Below are positions 17,449-21,158 of a stretch of 64,000 nt of DNA, in pieces; positions within the stretch are counted from its first letter, which is position 1; each line of letters begins with the position of its first letter. The DNA is from Escherichia coli (GTDB taxonomy: Bacteria; Pseudomonadota; Gammaproteobacteria; Enterobacterales; Enterobacteriaceae): assembly GCF_041248615.1 (NCBI RefSeq), contig NZ_CP158426.1, one strand, 5' to 3'. The notes beneath the pieces are model-generated. The model was not told the origin of the DNA. It was given only the letters and a program-made list of their open reading frames with translations, and did no database searches. Both the position numbers and the translations under genes were made by a program.

Positions 17449-17614
17449 AGCAACCTCCGGGTTTAAGGAAAAACAGACAGTTCGCTGTTAAAGCGGCTGT
17501 AACAGTACAGTGTTACGCTTGCGTTCAGGCACGCTACCGCCGAAGTTTCCGGCATCCGCCATCTCCCGTGAACGTAACCCCTTACTGACAACCTTTCTTT
17601 TTACGGCGTAATAC

Positions 17615-17647
17615 AAAAACAGCATCCGGCCTAATAGCCGGATGCTG
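17615..17647 (-). terminator. rho-independent terminator/attenuator downstream of hcp
   Basis: Minus strand: cagcatccggc-tatta-gccggatgctg hairpin followed by TTTTTG, between hcp stop and vgrG start. Confidence 0.5.
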
Positions 17648-17657
17648 TTGGCTTAAC

Positions 17658-18176
17658 TTATGCTTCCAGCGGTGCGCGCCAGTCGTCGGCACCGGAGGTG
17701 CCAGACTTGACGTGTTCCCACTCTATTTTGCGGTAGGCCAGTGAAACTTCGAGCAACTGGGTGAACTCGCGTTTCGCCGGATCCTGGCAATGCGGCATAT
17801 GCAGTTTCATATCGACAATCGTCGAATCGGTCAGGCGGGTGGTGAAATAATGCTCCTGTTTGCCTTCCACAGAGGTACGCCACCAGTGAAGTTCAGTGGT
17901 TGGCAGCATTTCGCCGGAGGCCAGTGCGTTGTACATCAGCGGAACAGCTTTGTTCAGCGCCACGGTAAAAATGAACGGCTTGTGAGCACGCTGACCCGCA
18001 GGCTGGCCGGACTGAGGATCGGTCGGGACAGTAACGTTATGCAGGAATTCCTGCACCAGCATCTCGTCTTCGTGCCCCTGCACATAGATGTTGCCGACAG
18101 AATCAGCGGTAAATGCACCTGCAGTAATATTTCCCTGGGTCTGACCAGTGATGGAGATATAACACGGTGTTGGCAT
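17658..18176 (-). CDS. hcp: T6SS tube protein Hcp (TssD)
   Basis: 172-aa ORF MPTPCYISITGQTQGNITAG... typical Hcp N-terminus and length. Confidence 0.92.
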   Translation of the reverse strand: MPTPCYISITGQTQGNITAGAFTADSVGNIYVQGHEDEMLVQEFLHNVTVPTDPQSGQPAGQRAHKPFIFTVALNKAVPLMYNALASGEMLPTTELHWWRTSVEGKQEHYFTTRLTDSTIVDMKLHMPHCQDPAKREFTQLLEVSLAYRKIEWEHVKSGTSGADDWRAPLEA

Positions 18177-18872
18177 TTGTAAACTCCTTGTTAACGTGGT
18201 TAATTACTACTTACAATGACCTGCCGTTAATCCCAGACAGGCAGATGCAGCTCACTTCACGGAACCGCATCATTTTTCAGTATTTTTTACATACAAACCG
18301 AGCTAGAATTTACGGTTGTCGTAAAAACTATTTTTAAAATCATTAAATCTCTTATTCAGCAATAAGTTAATAATATATATCTGGATAACCATACCCAACT
18401 ATTCAAAGTCCGTATTGCCTCCATAAAATGGCCAAAGCTGAATCATGAATAAATATTGTATTTATCCTTTCTGAATTATCATTTTGATAATTTTTGAGAT
18501 ATTCCTTAAAAATACCCACTTAATCAATCACAAAACAAATATATAAACAAGCAATCATCAGATTAGCTTATGTTTAATGAAATTATTATATAATTCAATA
18601 AGTTACATAAAAACTCTATATTTAAATTATTGCCATAATACACCTGACGCGAATTTCGAAGGTTCACACAATCTATTTAACGCTTGCAGAATACCTCTCT
18701 TTACGATCGATAAAAAGTCCTTTTCTTATTTATTTTGAAGCGTAGAATGCGGGGTGATGAAGGAGTGGTGATTTTATTTTCACCGCCATTAGGGCGGCAT
18801 TGCCGATATTTTTTTGCGGTACAAATATGCCGTGTTCATGGCCTGTACGAGATAACATGACGGATCACTTTT
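18177..18872. promoter_or_regulatory. AT-rich divergent intergenic regulatory region between hcp operon and tssB operon
   Basis: About 700 bp, strongly AT-rich, no convincing ORF; separates divergently transcribed T6SS operons. Promoter positions not resolved. Confidence 0.4.
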
Positions 18873-19373
18873 ATGAGCAAAAAATTTGAAGGCAGCGTCG
18901 CGCCTCGCGAGCGTATAAATATATCCTATGTCCCGAAGACGGACGGCCAGACGGCTGAAGTGGAGCTTCCGCTTAACATGCTCGTTGTCGGCGATACCGG
19001 AAATACGCAGGAGACATCCCCACTGGATGAACGTCAGGCAGTTTCCGTTAACAAGCACAATTTCGGTGCGGTGATGGCTGAAGCAGCCATTGGCCTCAAT
19101 TTTACCGTCCCCGCCACGCTGAAGGGAAGCACAACGGACGATGAACTGAATGTGGCGCTGAATATCAAGTCACTGGATGATTTTTCACCGGACAGCGTGG
19201 CCCGGCAGGTTCCGGAAGTTAATAAATTGCTGGAATTGCGTGAAGCACTGACTGCGCTGAAGGGGCCGATGGGCAACCTTCCGGCATTCCGTACCCAGCT
19301 CCAGGCATTGCTGGAAAATGAGGAGTCCCGCGAGCAGTTGCTCAAAGAAATCGGCCAAGTGAGTGGGAAATAA
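18873..19373 (+). CDS. tssB: T6SS contractile sheath small subunit TssB (VipA)
   Basis: 166-aa ORF MSKKFEGSVAPRERINISYVPKTDGQ... typical TssB. Confidence 0.9.
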   Translation: MSKKFEGSVAPRERINISYVPKTDGQTAEVELPLNMLVVGDTGNTQETSPLDERQAVSVNKHNFGAVMAEAAIGLNFTVPATLKGSTTDDELNVALNIKSLDDFSPDSVARQVPEVNKLLELREALTALKGPMGNLPAFRTQLQALLENEESREQLLKEIGQVSGK

Positions 19374-19632
19374 CCACCACTATTTCATTAAACAGGGTTA
19401 TCCAGACATGGCGGCACACAAAAATATCTCCGGGAAAAACCCCCTCTCTGACGAAGACATTTTGCAGGCGGTTTACCGGGTATGTTTCAGCCCGTCCGGT
19501 GAAATCAACCGGGATGGCGTGGATGCGCTGATTACAACACTGGATCGCCGTATCAGTGATCTATTGGATGAGATTATCCATTTTTGTGAGTTTCAGCAGA
19601 GCGCGTCGCACTGGCAGCGCGTACTTCACTGA
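19363..19632 (+). CDS. small ORF encoding a TssC N-terminal-like segment (possible remnant or accessory protein)
   Basis: 89-aa ORF; region DALITTLDRRISDLLDEIIHFCEFQQSASHWQRVL parallels TssC residues DSMIADIDERISRQMDVIIHAPAFQQVESFWRSL encoded just downstream. Expression unverified. Confidence 0.4.
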   Translation: MGNNHHYFIKQGYPDMAAHKNISGKNPLSDEDILQAVYRVCFSPSGEINRDGVDALITTLDRRISDLLDEIIHFCEFQQSASHWQRVLH

Positions 19633-19682
19633 TGGCGAAAAGCCGGTTTCAGAAACACAGCTAAAACAGAAGGATTTTCAGT

Positions 19683-21158
19683 ATGTCTTTACAGGAAGAG
19701 GAACTCGTTTCCAGTCATGCCGGGCAGCCTGAGCAGGCATCGTCGCTGCTTGATCAAATCATGGCACAGACCCGTATTCAGCCCGGTTCGGAAGGTTATG
19801 ACGTTGCCCGCCAGGGTGTGACAGCCTTTATTGCCAGCATCCTGCAATCCACTGCATCTGCCGAACCGGTCAATAAACTGGCCGTGGACAGCATGATTGC
19901 AGATATTGATGAACGCATCAGCCGCCAGATGGATGTCATCATCCATGCGCCTGCCTTTCAGCAGGTCGAGTCGTTCTGGCGCTCACTGAAAACCATGGTG
20001 GATCGCGTTGATTTCCGTGAAAACATCAAGGTCAACGTGCTTCATGTCACCAAGCAGGAACTTCTGGAAGACTTTGAGTTTGCGCCAGAAATTATTCAGT
20101 CCGGATTTTATAAGCACGTTTATTCGTCCGGTTTCGGACAGTTTGGCGGTGAACCCATCGCTGCCGTGCTGGGCGCTTATGAGTTCAAAAATACCGCGCC
20201 TGACATGAAACTGCTGCAATACGTCAGTGCCGTGGGCGCAATGGCGCACGCACCGTTCCTGTCCTCCGTTTCCCCGGAGTTTATGGGGCTGAACTCGTGG
20301 ACCGAACTGCCTAATATCAAAGATCTTTATGCCATCTTTGAAGGTCCGGCCTACACCAAATGGCGCGCCCTGCGAGACTCGGAAGATTCGCGCTATATAG
20401 GGCTTACGGCACCCCGCTTCCTGCTTCGCCAGCCTTATTCACCAACAGATAACCCTGTTAAGAACTTTAACTATCACGAAGATGTCAGCCGGAACCACGA
20501 AGATTATCTGTGGGGTAATACGGCCTGGATGCTGGCGTGCAATGTCGCAGACAGTTTTGCCAAATACCGCTGGTGTCCAAATATCATCGGTCCGCAAAGC
20601 GGCGGCGCAGTGAAAGATCTGCCGGTGCATCTGTTCGAAACGATGGGTCAGATTCAGGCCAAAATCCCAACCGAGGTGCTGGTCACCGATCGCCGCGAAT
20701 TTGAACTGGCTGAAGAGGGTTTTATCACCCTTACCATGCGTAAAGACTCTGATAATGCAGCCTTTTTCTCTGCAAACTCGGTACAAAAACCGAAGCACTT
20801 TCCGGGCAAAGACGCAGAAACCAACTATAAGTTGGGTACGCAGCTTCCTTATCTCTTCATCATCAATCGGTTAGCGCACTACATCAAGGTGTTGCAGCGT
20901 GAACAACTGGGGTCATGGAAAGAAAGGAGCGACTTAGAGAGGGAGCTTAATACCTGGATCCGTCAGTATGTTGCCGACCAGGAAAACCCGCCTGCGGACG
21001 TGCGCAGCCGCAAGCCTCTGCGTGCTGCCAGAGTTGAGGTTATGGATGTGGAAGGCGAACCCGGCTGGTACCAGGTCGCGCTGAGCGTGCGGCCCCATTT
21101 TAAATTTATGGGGGCAAACTTTGAGCTTTCCCTGGTTGGCCGGTTAGACAGGGAGTAA
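19683..21158 (+). CDS. tssC: T6SS contractile sheath large subunit TssC (VipB)
   Basis: 491-aa ORF with conserved TssC motifs and length. Confidence 0.92.
   Translation: MSLQEEELVSSHAGQPEQASSLLDQIMAQTRIQPGSEGYDVARQGVTAFIASILQSTASAEPVNKLAVDSMIADIDERISRQMDVIIHAPAFQQVESFWRSLKTMVDRVDFRENIKVNVLHVTKQELLEDFEFAPEIIQSGFYKHVYSSGFGQFGGEPIAAVLGAYEFKNTAPDMKLLQYVSAVGAMAHAPFLSSVSPEFMGLNSWTELPNIKDLYAIFEGPAYTKWRALRDSEDSRYIGLTAPRFLLRQPYSPTDNPVKNFNYHEDVSRNHEDYLWGNTAWMLACNVADSFAKYRWCPNIIGPQSGGAVKDLPVHLFETMGQIQAKIPTEVLVTDRREFELAEEGFITLTMRKDSDNAAFFSANSVQKPKHFPGKDAETNYKLGTQLPYLFIINRLAHYIKVLQREQLGSWKERSDLERELNTWIRQYVADQENPPADVRSRKPLRAARVEVMDVEGEPGWYQVALSVRPHFKFMGANFELSLVGRLDRE

What the first reader, a model, noticed from the sequence alone, without database searches (positions are those of the whole stretch)
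18177..18872. About 700-bp AT-rich divergent control region between the hcp-vgrG-rhs and tssB-tssM operons
This is the longest non-coding stretch in the island and strongly AT-rich relative to both flanking operons, typical of nucleoid-protein (H-NS type) silenced promoters in acquired islands. It includes a short palindrome ggtga-ttttatttt-cacc near 18764..18781 about 100 bp upstream of tssB. It probably holds the regulatory inputs deciding when the system fires.
Basis: inference. Interest (0 to 1): 0.35.

Follow-up and report, generated by a model that had tools for sequence, protein, structure and literature searches.

The report
Known H-NS-silenced T6SS divergent promoter region
This is the AT-rich spacer between the two divergent operons of the common E. 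coli type VI secretion island (T6SS-2); a 97-98% identical copy in EHEC O157:H7 has already been shown to be a two-way promoter kept off by H-NS, so the finding is real but ordinary.

Summary
Positions 18177-18872 are a 696-bp gene-free gap between hcp (minus strand) and tssB (plus strand). It is the longest intergenic gap in the whole 64-kb window. Its GC is 0.33 (core 0.23-0.27), against 0.52 for the window and 0.40 for the other gaps.

The window is E. coli chromosome. The island is the T6SS-2 cluster at tRNA-Asp (aspV), and the spacer is present in 2269 of 5426 complete E. coli genomes. The spacer is 97-98% identical, over almost the same length, to the EHEC Sakai ECs_0233/ECs_0234 spacer. 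Published work calls that spacer a bidirectional promoter (t6sP), reports H-NS bound to it, and shows derepression in hns mutants.

Comparison of 11 orthologous spacers from several genera adds three points:
- AT-richness, length (611-696 bp in the 11 aligned here; 552-590 bp in two more distant ones) and about 290 bp between two candidate core promoters are conserved, while most of the sequence is not.
- The conserved blocks suggest a tssB promoter (-35 18721-18726, -10 18743-18748) and an hcp promoter (-10 18460-18455, minus strand), both with long leaders.
It is not statistically unusual and is not conserved outside E. coli.

Interest is low.

The parts
18177..18872 (.). Whole divergent intergenic control region between hcp and tssB (the 't6sP' bidirectional promoter region of EHEC papers)
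   Evidence: Gene-free in RefSeq. It is 696 bp with GC 0.328 and 97-98% identical to the EHEC Sakai spacer.
18290..18740 (.). AT-rich core, the likely platform for H-NS filaments
   Evidence: GC is 0.27 and the TpA step frequency is 0.12, against 0.044 for the window. Most of its sequence is poorly conserved between genera, but the low GC (0.29-0.34) is kept in all 13 orthologous spacers examined.
18721..18748 (+). Candidate tssB core promoter: -35 TTTTCT (18721-18726), 16-bp spacer, -10 TAGAAT (18743-18748); inferred start near 18755
   Evidence: The -10 (TAAAAT or TAGAAT), a 16-bp spacer and a -35-like hexamer (TTCTCA in 6 spacers, close variants in the others) are kept in 10 of 11 aligned orthologous spacers. 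The transcription start site is not mapped here.
18707..18718 (+). Conserved A-rich block TCGATAAAAAGT just upstream of the candidate -35. It resembles an UP element and matches the H-NS high-affinity motif TCGATAAATT at 8 of 10 positions
   Evidence: A 12-bp run identical in E. coli and E. albertii, with AAAAAGT invariant in 5 taxa. The motif match is. Four such matches occur in the region against 2.4 expected, so the motif is not significant on its own.
18686..18694 (+). Conserved block GCAGAATAC (GAAGAATAC in most other spacers), about 60-70 bp upstream of the inferred tssB start; either a regulator site or a second -10
   Evidence: The GAATAC/GGATAC core is kept in 9 of 11 aligned spacers (TAATAC and GGATAA in the other two). 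The tool's sigma-70 scan also lists TTCACA-18-CAGAAT at 18663-18692.
18755..18872 (+).
   Evidence: RNA fold of 18752-18890 gives -40.2 kcal/mol, z = -2.2. The leader is about 30 nt shorter and folds differently in other genera.
18767..18784 (.).
   Evidence: Exact coordinates are. The arms are not conserved in E. albertii, Yokenella, Citrobacter or Salmonella. Identity in this stretch is 0.16-0.48.
18433..18467 (-). Most conserved block of the AT-rich core. It contains the candidate hcp -10 TACAAT (18460-18455, minus strand; TATAAT in 4 other spacers) and a dyad, ATGAAT-N9-ATTyAT (18445-18465)
   Evidence: 35 bp are identical in E. coli and E. albertii although 4-fold sites in the flanking genes are only 51-70% identical. 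No such run appeared in 5000 simulations. The motif is recognisable in 8 of 11 spacers. It is unique in the window. The tool's scan gives ATGATA-16-TACAAT on the minus strand.
18474..18492 (.). Perfect 19-bp palindrome AATTATCA-TTT-TGATAATT overlapping the candidate hcp -35; resembles a Fur box made of three NATWAT hexamers
   Evidence: It scores 14 of 15 on both strands, and only 1% of dinucleotide shuffles hold such a site. It scores only 12 of 15 in E. albertii and cannot be aligned in other genera. The classic 19-mer Fur consensus scan was not significant.
18177..18448 (-). Inferred long hcp 5' leader (about 270 nt) with the ribosome-binding site AAGGAG (18184-18189, minus strand)
   Evidence: The distance from the candidate -10 to the hcp ATG is 228-278 nt in all 11 spacers. 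The ribosome-binding block AAACTCCTT is invariant in 5 taxa.
18218..18243 (-). Conserved stem-loop (or DNA palindrome) in the hcp leader
   Evidence: RNAalifold on 10 taxa predicts a 9-pair helix; 87.6% of cells are paired against 31-55% when the partner is slid; one pair alternates C-G and U-A, four sequences each; the covariation score is reached by 19 of 500 shuffles. Support is modest.
17658..18176 (-). hcp, first gene of the hcp-vgrG-rhs arm
   Evidence: Pfam T6SS_HCP, E = 5e-31; RefSeq annotation.
18873..19373 (+). tssB, first gene of the tssB-to-vasL structural operon
   Evidence: Pfam T6SS_VipA, E = 1e-51; RefSeq annotation.

Best explanation
The region is the shared control region of the E. 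coli T6SS-2 island inserted at tRNA-Asp (aspV). It most likely holds two back-to-back promoters. One drives hcp-vgrG-rhs leftwards and the other drives tssB through vasL rightwards.

The promoters are separated by about 290 bp of very AT-rich, TpA-rich DNA. Under laboratory conditions H-NS coats this DNA and keeps both promoters nearly off. Expression needs relief of H-NS plus further inputs that are still unknown.

Shown by others for the 97-98% identical EHEC sequence: promoter activity in both directions, H-NS binding and derepression in hns mutants.

Shown here: the identity with the EHEC region, the composition, and the conservation of the architecture across genera.

Inferred here: the position of the tssB promoter (-35 18721-18726, -10 18743-18748, start near 18755, leader about 118 nt) and of the hcp promoter (-10 18460-18455 on the minus strand, start near 18448, leader about 270 nt). 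That H-NS nucleates in the spacer between the promoters and over the leaders is also an inference.
For: - Identity: the window matches an E. coli chromosome at 100%, and the spacer occurs once per genome in 2269 of 5426 complete genomes at 96.5-100% identity. The window spacer is 97-98% identical to the EHEC Sakai spacer, which is also 696 bp, and the Sakai cluster has the same gene order.
- Experiments on the EHEC copy: hns deletion raises z0254, z0264 and z0267 transcripts, z0264 about 60-fold, and complementation reverses this (PMC5363993). H-NS is reported bound between hcp3 and tssB, and several start sites are reported (PMC13141884). A two-way gfp/mCherry reporter is nearly silent in wild type and more active in the hns mutant.
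- Composition: GC is 0.328 (core 0.27) and TpA steps are 2.4-2.8 times the window average. The island is flanked by tRNA-Asp and is present in only some genomes, as expected for acquired DNA.
- Conserved architecture: all 13 orthologous spacers examined, from E. coli (two variants), E. albertii, Yokenella, Citrobacter (two species), Salmonella (two), Superficieibacter and unnamed assemblies, are 552-696 bp with GC 0.29-0.34. Where computed (8 of the 13), the adjacent tssB-tssC DNA has GC 0.44-0.52. In the 11 that could be aligned, the candidate -10 elements lie 253-298 bp apart.
- Selection on blocks: runs of 35 and 23 identical bases between E. coli and E. albertii stand in a spacer that is 63% identical overall, while 4-fold sites in the flanking genes are only 51-70% identical.
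Against: - No transcription start site, H-NS occupancy or expression data exist for this strain. Everything experimental is transferred from EHEC.
- The paper that mapped the start sites (Kim et al. 2022, PMID 35984617) is not held, so the promoter positions given here could not be checked against it.
- The simple sigma-70 scan finds 5 promoter-like sites against 3.0 +/- 2.0 expected, which is no enrichment.
- The candidate -35 of the tssB promoter is weak in this window (3 of 6).
- The candidate hcp -10 lacks the key A at its second position in two genera (TTTAAT, TGTAAT).
- The H-NS high-affinity motif is not enriched (4 found, 2.4 expected), and A-tracts are not phased with the helix.
- In EHEC, hns deletion gives mRNA but little protein, so H-NS silencing is only part of the control.
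Confidence: 0.85

Rival explanations
1. A specific regulator, not H-NS, is the main switch. The leading candidate is Fur, binding the 19-bp palindrome AATTATCA-TTT-TGATAATT (18474-18492) over the candidate hcp -35, as Fur does at the EAEC sci-1 (T6SS-1) promoter. H-NS would only add background repression.
For: The palindrome scores 14 of 15 as three NATWAT hexamers on both strands, and only 1% of dinucleotide shuffles hold such a site. It overlaps the -35 of the only minus-strand promoter the scan found. Its right half lies in a 23-bp run identical to E. albertii. Fur controls E. coli T6SS-1 (PMC3145626; PMC10482370).
Against: The classic 19-mer Fur consensus gives nothing beyond chance. About 18 motifs were tried, so a 1% event is weak evidence. 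The site scores 12 of 15 in E. albertii and is not recognisable in other genera. No GATC overlaps it, unlike sci-1; the GATC sites are at 18705-18708 and 18863-18866. The EHEC authors' binding-site prediction listed ArgP, CysB, CytR, Fis, LeuO and NarL/NarP, not Fur, and none of the media they tested consistently activated the promoters.
Confidence: 0.12
2. The palindrome at 18767-18784, with the adjacent hairpin at 18783-18797, is the key element. It would act as an operator for a dimeric repressor (a CRP-like or Fis-like match) or as an RNA hairpin or attenuator in the tssB leader that blocks translation.
For: It matches TGTGA-N8-TCACA at 8 of 10 positions and a loose Fis consensus. It lies inside the inferred tssB leader. 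The E. coli leader folds more stably than shuffles (z = -2.2) with the start codon and part of the ribosome-binding site paired. In EHEC, tssB mRNA rises in the hns mutant while TssB protein stays low.
Against: The arms are absent in E. albertii and in the other genera, and the whole segment is about 30 nt shorter in the more distant genera. This is the least conserved part of the spacer. The second hairpin loses a pair in EHEC Sakai. The inverted-repeat count is not beyond chance. Predicted accessibility of the ribosome-binding site is similar in leaders that lack the palindrome.
Confidence: 0.08
3. The gap hides an unannotated small protein gene or a small RNA gene.
For: ORFs of 31-56 codons exist on both strands, and highly conserved blocks lie inside the AT-rich core.
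Against: Every ORF is broken by indels that are not multiples of three in close relatives. There is a 1-nt indel in EHEC at about 18608 and another in the T-run at 18809-18815. E. albertii has a 4-nt insertion and 15-50-nt deletions. Rfam gives no match with E below 2.6. No intrinsic terminator is found inside the gap.
Confidence: 0.04

Closest known systems
EHEC O157:H7 T6SS bidirectional promoter 't6sP' (between tssB/ECs_0233 and hcp3/ECs_0234; Z0264-Z0265 in EDL933)
   Same: It is the same locus, gene order and spacer length, with 97-98% nucleotide identity. Published evidence covers H-NS binding, hns-dependent silencing and two-way promoter activity.
   Different: About 18 substitutions and two 1-nt indels separate the two copies, clustered at 18655-18670 and 18790-18815. 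The -10 reads TAGAAT here and TAAAAT in EHEC. No experiment has been done on this allele.
H-NS silencing of the Salmonella SPI-6 T6SS, and of T6SS clusters in Vibrio and Edwardsiella
   Same: The principle is the same: an acquired T6SS cluster kept off by H-NS at AT-rich promoter DNA. These cases are cited in PMC5363993; the rest is from established knowledge.
   Different: The gene clusters and promoter sequences are different, and no sequence homology was tested here.
EAEC sci-1 (E. coli T6SS-1) promoter with overlapping Fur boxes and Dam GATC sites (PMC3145626)
   Same: It is also an E. coli T6SS promoter region. A Fur-box-like hexamer array is present here at 18474-18492.
   Different: It belongs to a different T6SS family with a different gene order. 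No GATC overlaps the Fur-like site here, and that site is not conserved in relatives.
Vibrio cholerae large T6SS cluster (VasH and sigma-54 dependent)
   Same: The order of the structural genes (tssB, tssC, tssE, F, G, tagH, J, K, L, clpV, vasI, tssA, tssM, vasL) is nearly the same (comparison from knowledge).
   Different: No vasH gene lies between clpV and vasI, and no sigma-54 -24/-12 motif is found in the spacer.
APEC DE719 'T6SS2' hcp2B promoter bound by phosphorylated CpxR (PMC6534853)
   Same: The hcp/vipA(tssB) arrangement is also divergent.
   Different: That cluster is diverged from this one. Where the published primers can be placed in this window at all they differ by 4-5 nt, and three find no place within 5 mismatches. 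The exact CpxR consensus GTAAA-N4-8-GTAAA is absent from the spacer.

Membership tests
H-NS (xenogeneic) silenced promoter region | DNA markedly more AT-rich than the host genome, over hundreds of base pairs | tested here: met
   GC is 0.328 over 696 bp and 0.27 over 18290-18740, against 0.521 for the window and 0.400 for the other intergenic DNA.
H-NS (xenogeneic) silenced promoter region | Location in horizontally acquired DNA | tested here: met
   The island lies between yafV and tRNA-Asp with IS remnants. It is present in 2269 of 5426 complete E. coli genomes.
H-NS (xenogeneic) silenced promoter region | H-NS occupancy of the DNA (ChIP, EMSA or footprint) | not testable with these tools
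   Reported for the 97-98% identical EHEC region (PMC13141884, citing Wan 2017 and Kim 2022). There are no data for this allele.
H-NS (xenogeneic) silenced promoter region | Derepression in an hns mutant | not testable with these tools
   Shown in EHEC: about 60-fold for z0264, reversed by complementation, with the reporter more active in the hns mutant.
H-NS (xenogeneic) silenced promoter region | High-affinity nucleation motif (TCGATAAATT-like) and/or intrinsic curvature | tested here: inconclusive
   Four sites match at 8 of 10 against 2.4 expected; one of them (18707-18716) lies in a conserved block. AA/TT periodicity at 10-11 bp is not significant. TpA steps are enriched 2.4-2.8 fold.
Divergent (bidirectional) promoter region | Two divergently oriented operons flanking one gene-free spacer | tested here: met
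   hcp is on the minus strand and tssB on the plus strand. The arrangement is kept in all 13 orthologous loci examined.
Divergent (bidirectional) promoter region | Promoter elements on both strands | tested here: inconclusive
   The conserved -10 and -35 for tssB are kept in 10 of 11 spacers, and a conserved -10-like TAyAAT/TATAAT for hcp is seen in 6 of 11 with weaker variants in the others. The plain consensus scan is not enriched over shuffles.
Divergent (bidirectional) promoter region | Mapped transcription start sites and reporter activity in both directions | not testable with these tools
   Reported for EHEC. The paper with the start-site coordinates is not held.
Fur/Dam-switched T6SS promoter (EAEC sci-1 type) | Fur box overlapping the core promoter | tested here: inconclusive
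   A three-hexamer NATWAT array scores 14 of 15 at 18474-18492, a level reached by 1% of shuffles. The 19-mer consensus is not significant, and the site is not conserved.
Fur/Dam-switched T6SS promoter (EAEC sci-1 type) | GATC methylation site inside the Fur box | tested here: not met
   The only GATC sites are at 18705-18708 and 18863-18866.
Sigma-54/VasH-dependent T6SS promoter (V. cholerae type) | A -24/-12 element (TGGCAC-N5-TTGCW) and an enhancer-binding protein gene in the cluster | tested here: not met
   No site reaches 9 of 11, and no vasH is annotated in the cluster.
CpxR-activated hcp2B promoter (APEC T6SS2) | CpxR box GTAAA-N4-8-GTAAA upstream of hcp | tested here: not met
   There is no exact match in the spacer. 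Matches at 8-9 of 10 occur at the chance rate. The APEC primers show that cluster is a different variant.
Known structured RNA (riboswitch, leader, sRNA) in Rfam | Match to a covariance model | tested here: not met
   The best E-values are 2.6-4.3, and all three hits are to unrelated (mostly eukaryotic) families.

The most novel reading that the evidence does not exclude
Beyond H-NS, the spacer may carry a conserved and so far undescribed control layer. Its three parts would be:
- the dyad ATGAAT-N9-ATTCAT over the hcp -10 (18445-18465), acting as operator for an unidentified regulator or anti-silencer;
- a fixed spacing of about 290 bp between the two promoters;
- long leaders, including a conserved stem-loop in the hcp leader (18218-18243), that limit translation.

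Together these could explain why hns deletion in EHEC raises mRNA but gives little protein, and why no activating signal has been found.
Probability: 0.2. Interest if true: 0.45.

Novelty: already known. Interest (0 to 1): 0.15.

Why it matters
T6SS-2 is the most common T6SS of E. coli, including EHEC and other Shiga-toxin producers, and it is silent in the laboratory, which blocks study of its function. This spacer is where that silence is imposed.

The finding itself adds nothing new, because H-NS silencing and two-way promoter activity of the near-identical EHEC sequence are published. The cross-genus comparison does give concrete, testable positions: two candidate core promoters, a conserved dyad and a conserved leader hairpin.

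Tried and rejected
- Rfam scan at a permissive threshold over 17600-19800: only chance-level hits.
- Consensus scans for Fur (19-mer), H-NS motif, IHF, Fis, CRP (6- and 8-bp spacers), FNR, CpxR (4-7 bp spacers), sigma-54, PhoP, Lrp, ArcA, OmpR, RcsB and a LeuO-like dyad, each against 300 dinucleotide shuffles: none clearly enriched. PhoP-like half sites gave 3 against 0.27 expected, but they fall in segments deleted or changed in E. albertii.
- Exact CpxR box: absent.
- Helical phasing of AA/TT as a proxy for curvature: no significant peak at 10-11 bp.
- Small ORFs: all broken by frame-shifting indels in close relatives.
- Intrinsic terminators: none inside the gap.
- Repeats: only short AT-rich chance pairs, and no second copy of the spacer anywhere in E. 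coli genomes.
- Conservation of the tssB leader fold across genera: not conserved.
- Transfer of the APEC CpxR result: rejected, because the published primers do not match this cluster.
- Kim et al. 2022 (PMID 35984617), for mapped start sites: not held. Supplement of the EHEC dRNA-seq paper: not held.
- Searching with the E. albertii spacer for a divergent E. coli class gave only partial matches. The 29 low-identity genomes carry a third variant (L014) with the same architecture.
- One conserved-block search was mis-spaced by one base and is void.

Full report
**What is there.** Positions 18177-18872 lie between hcp (17658-18176, minus strand; Pfam T6SS_HCP) and tssB (18873-19373, plus strand; Pfam T6SS_VipA). 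To the left, hcp is followed by vgrG and an Rhs protein. To the right, tssB is followed by a 74-codon ORF, then tssC, E, F, G, tagH, J, K, L, clpV, vasI, tssA, tssM, a VasL-domain gene and a second hcp.

The window is 100% identical here to E. coli chromosome NZ_LT599825.1. The island sits between yafV and tRNA-Asp (aspV). The spacer occurs once per genome in 2269 of 5426 complete E. coli genomes, nearly always at 96.5-100% identity. RefSeq annotates nothing inside it.

**Check of the observation.** The gap is 696 bp, the longest intergenic gap in the island and in the whole 64-kb window; the next is 365 bp. Its GC is 0.328, falling to 0.19-0.31 in 80-bp windows between 18260 and 18660. The window is 0.521, the island 0.538 and the other intergenic DNA 0.400. 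Only one other 696-bp stretch of the window is lower: 39577-40272, at the island end.

The palindrome GGTGA-N8-TCACC exists, but at 18767-18784, 3 bp from the stated position, and it ends 89 bp before the tssB ATG. Short inverted repeats of that kind with G+C in the arms are not more frequent than in shuffles (2 found, 0.64 expected, 14% of shuffles reach two).

**What it is.** The spacer is 97-98% identical to the spacer between ECs_0233 (tssB) and ECs_0234 (hcp) of EHEC O157:H7 Sakai, which is also 696 bp, and the Sakai cluster has the same gene order. That EHEC region has been studied:
- Deleting hns raises T6SS transcripts, about 60-fold for z0264, and complementation reverses it (PMC5363993).
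- A 2026 paper calls the spacer the bidirectional promoter t6sP. It states that H-NS is bound between hcp3 and tssB and that several start sites were mapped there by Kim et al. 2022 (PMC13141884).
- The same paper shows that a gfp/mCherry two-way reporter is nearly silent in wild type and more active in the hns mutant, especially towards hcp.
- It also shows that hns deletion gives mRNA but little protein, and that no tested medium consistently switches the promoters on.

**Comparison across taxa.** I collected orthologous hcp/tssB spacers from:
- E. albertii, Yokenella regensburgei and Citrobacter youngae;
- Salmonella enterica (two), Superficieibacter, C. farmeri and five unnamed assemblies;
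- a third E. coli variant.

All have the divergent arrangement, a spacer of 552-696 bp and GC 0.29-0.34. Where computed (8 of the 13 spacers), the adjacent tssB-tssC DNA has GC 0.44-0.52. Most of the sequence is not conserved: E. coli and E. albertii are 63% identical in the spacer, and 4-fold sites in the flanking genes are 51-70% identical. A few blocks stand out.

(a) Near tssB the pattern is GAAGAATAC ... AAAAAGTnCTTyTC ... GCGTAaAATG. It reads as a -35 (TTCTCA in six of the other spacers, TTTTCT here, 18721-18726), a 16-bp spacer and a -10 (TAAAAT; TAGAAT here, 18743-18748). It is kept in 10 of 11 aligned spacers. This predicts a start near 18755 and a leader of about 118 nt.

(b) In the AT-rich core, 35 bp (18433-18467) are identical in E. 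coli and E. albertii; no simulation of 5000 gave such a run. The motif ATGAATAAATATTrTATTCAT is recognisable in 8 of 11 spacers. On the minus strand it holds TACAAT (TATAAT in four other spacers), which is the -10 of the only minus-strand promoter the consensus scan found. That would give hcp a leader of about 270 nt; the distance is 228-278 nt in all 11 spacers.

(c) The two candidate -10 elements are 280-298 bp apart in 10 of 11 spacers.

(d) A stem-loop in the hcp leader (18218-18243) is kept with some compensating changes. Support for it is modest.

Its arms are absent in E. albertii, and the segment is missing in the other genera.

**How it most likely works.** Two back-to-back promoters face outwards, separated by about 290 bp of AT- and TpA-rich DNA and followed by long leaders. 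H-NS binds this DNA and silences both. The binding and silencing are shown in EHEC. Where H-NS nucleates is an inference; one conserved block, TCGATAAAAAGT at 18707-18718, resembles the high-affinity H-NS motif at 8 of 10 positions, but that motif is not enriched overall. Conservation of length and composition without conservation of sequence fits a role for the spacer as a protein-coated scaffold rather than as a set of many specific sites. Additional inputs must exist.

**Other inputs considered.**
- A perfect 19-bp palindrome, AATTATCA-TTT-TGATAATT (18474-18492), over the candidate hcp -35 scores 14 of 15 as a three-hexamer Fur array, a level reached by 1% of shuffles. It is degraded in E. 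albertii and absent elsewhere, and the classic Fur consensus is not significant.
- No sigma-54 element is present and no vasH gene is in the cluster, although the gene order resembles that of V. cholerae.
- The CpxR result for APEC 'T6SS2' concerns a diverged cluster. Where its primers can be placed in this window at all they differ by 4-5 nt, and the exact CpxR box is absent here.
- The E. coli tssB leader folds somewhat better than shuffles (z = -2.2), with the start codon partly paired. The fold is not conserved in other genera.
- No Rfam family matches. No ORF in the gap survives the indels seen in close relatives. No terminator is found in the gap. A-tracts are not phased with the helix.

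**Verdict.** The feature is real and correctly read, but it is already known: it is the H-NS-silenced bidirectional promoter region of E. coli T6SS-2. The new material here is limited to inferred promoter positions, a conserved dyad, a conserved leader hairpin and the conserved spacing, all of which need experiments. Interest is low (0.15).

Noticed in passing
window 19408-19632 (+): A 74-codon ORF lies between tssB and tssC and is annotated as hypothetical. It is also present in EHEC (ECs_0232) and in a Salmonella orthologue, but absent where tssB and tssC are adjacent (L012, L013, L014, L017). It is 43% identical over 40 residues to TssC residues 63-102 and gives a weak Pfam VipB N-terminal hit, so it looks like a partial paralogue of the TssC N-terminus.
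   Followed up: partly
window 17449-17657: The 209-bp hcp-vgrG gap (GC 0.50) corresponds to the 'h3R' element of PMC13141884. In EHEC that element is reported to hold a terminator, a promoter and the vgrG 5' UTR, and to limit vgrG expression.
   Followed up: no
window about 18184-18268; loci L008, L009: In 41 of 2269 genomes most of the region is not covered. The four such genomes listed have rearrangement junctions at or near the hcp-proximal edge of the spacer. In strain E-93 a transposase fragment replaces the whole hcp-vgrG-rhs arm. Other strains show transposase or Rhs junctions at query positions 8-15 and 92. Strain W24 has a 58-bp duplication of the hcp start.
   Followed up: partly
window about 38319-38801 (second hcp, after the VasL-domain gene): The second hcp of the cluster is annotated as a pseudogene with an internal stop in the identical RefSeq record.
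   Followed up: no
window 39577-40272 and 41171-41498: The end of the island next to tRNA-Asp is even more AT-rich than the finding: GC 0.303 over 696 bp, and 0.25 in the 328-bp gap before the tRNA.
   Followed up: no
locus L014 (E. coli 21AR0303) and 28 other E. coli genomes: A third, diverged hcp/tssB cluster variant exists in E. coli. Only 25% of the spacer aligns, at 71% identity. The architecture is the same, with a 682-bp spacer of GC 0.34, the same candidate promoter blocks, and no small ORF between tssB and tssC.
   Followed up: partly
window 18743-18757: In E. coli the candidate tssB -10 is followed by a G+C-rich stretch (GCGGGGTG), whereas the other genera have GATTACCA at that position. 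A G+C-rich discriminator is typical of promoters sensitive to ppGpp/DksA (from knowledge). This was not tested.
   Followed up: no
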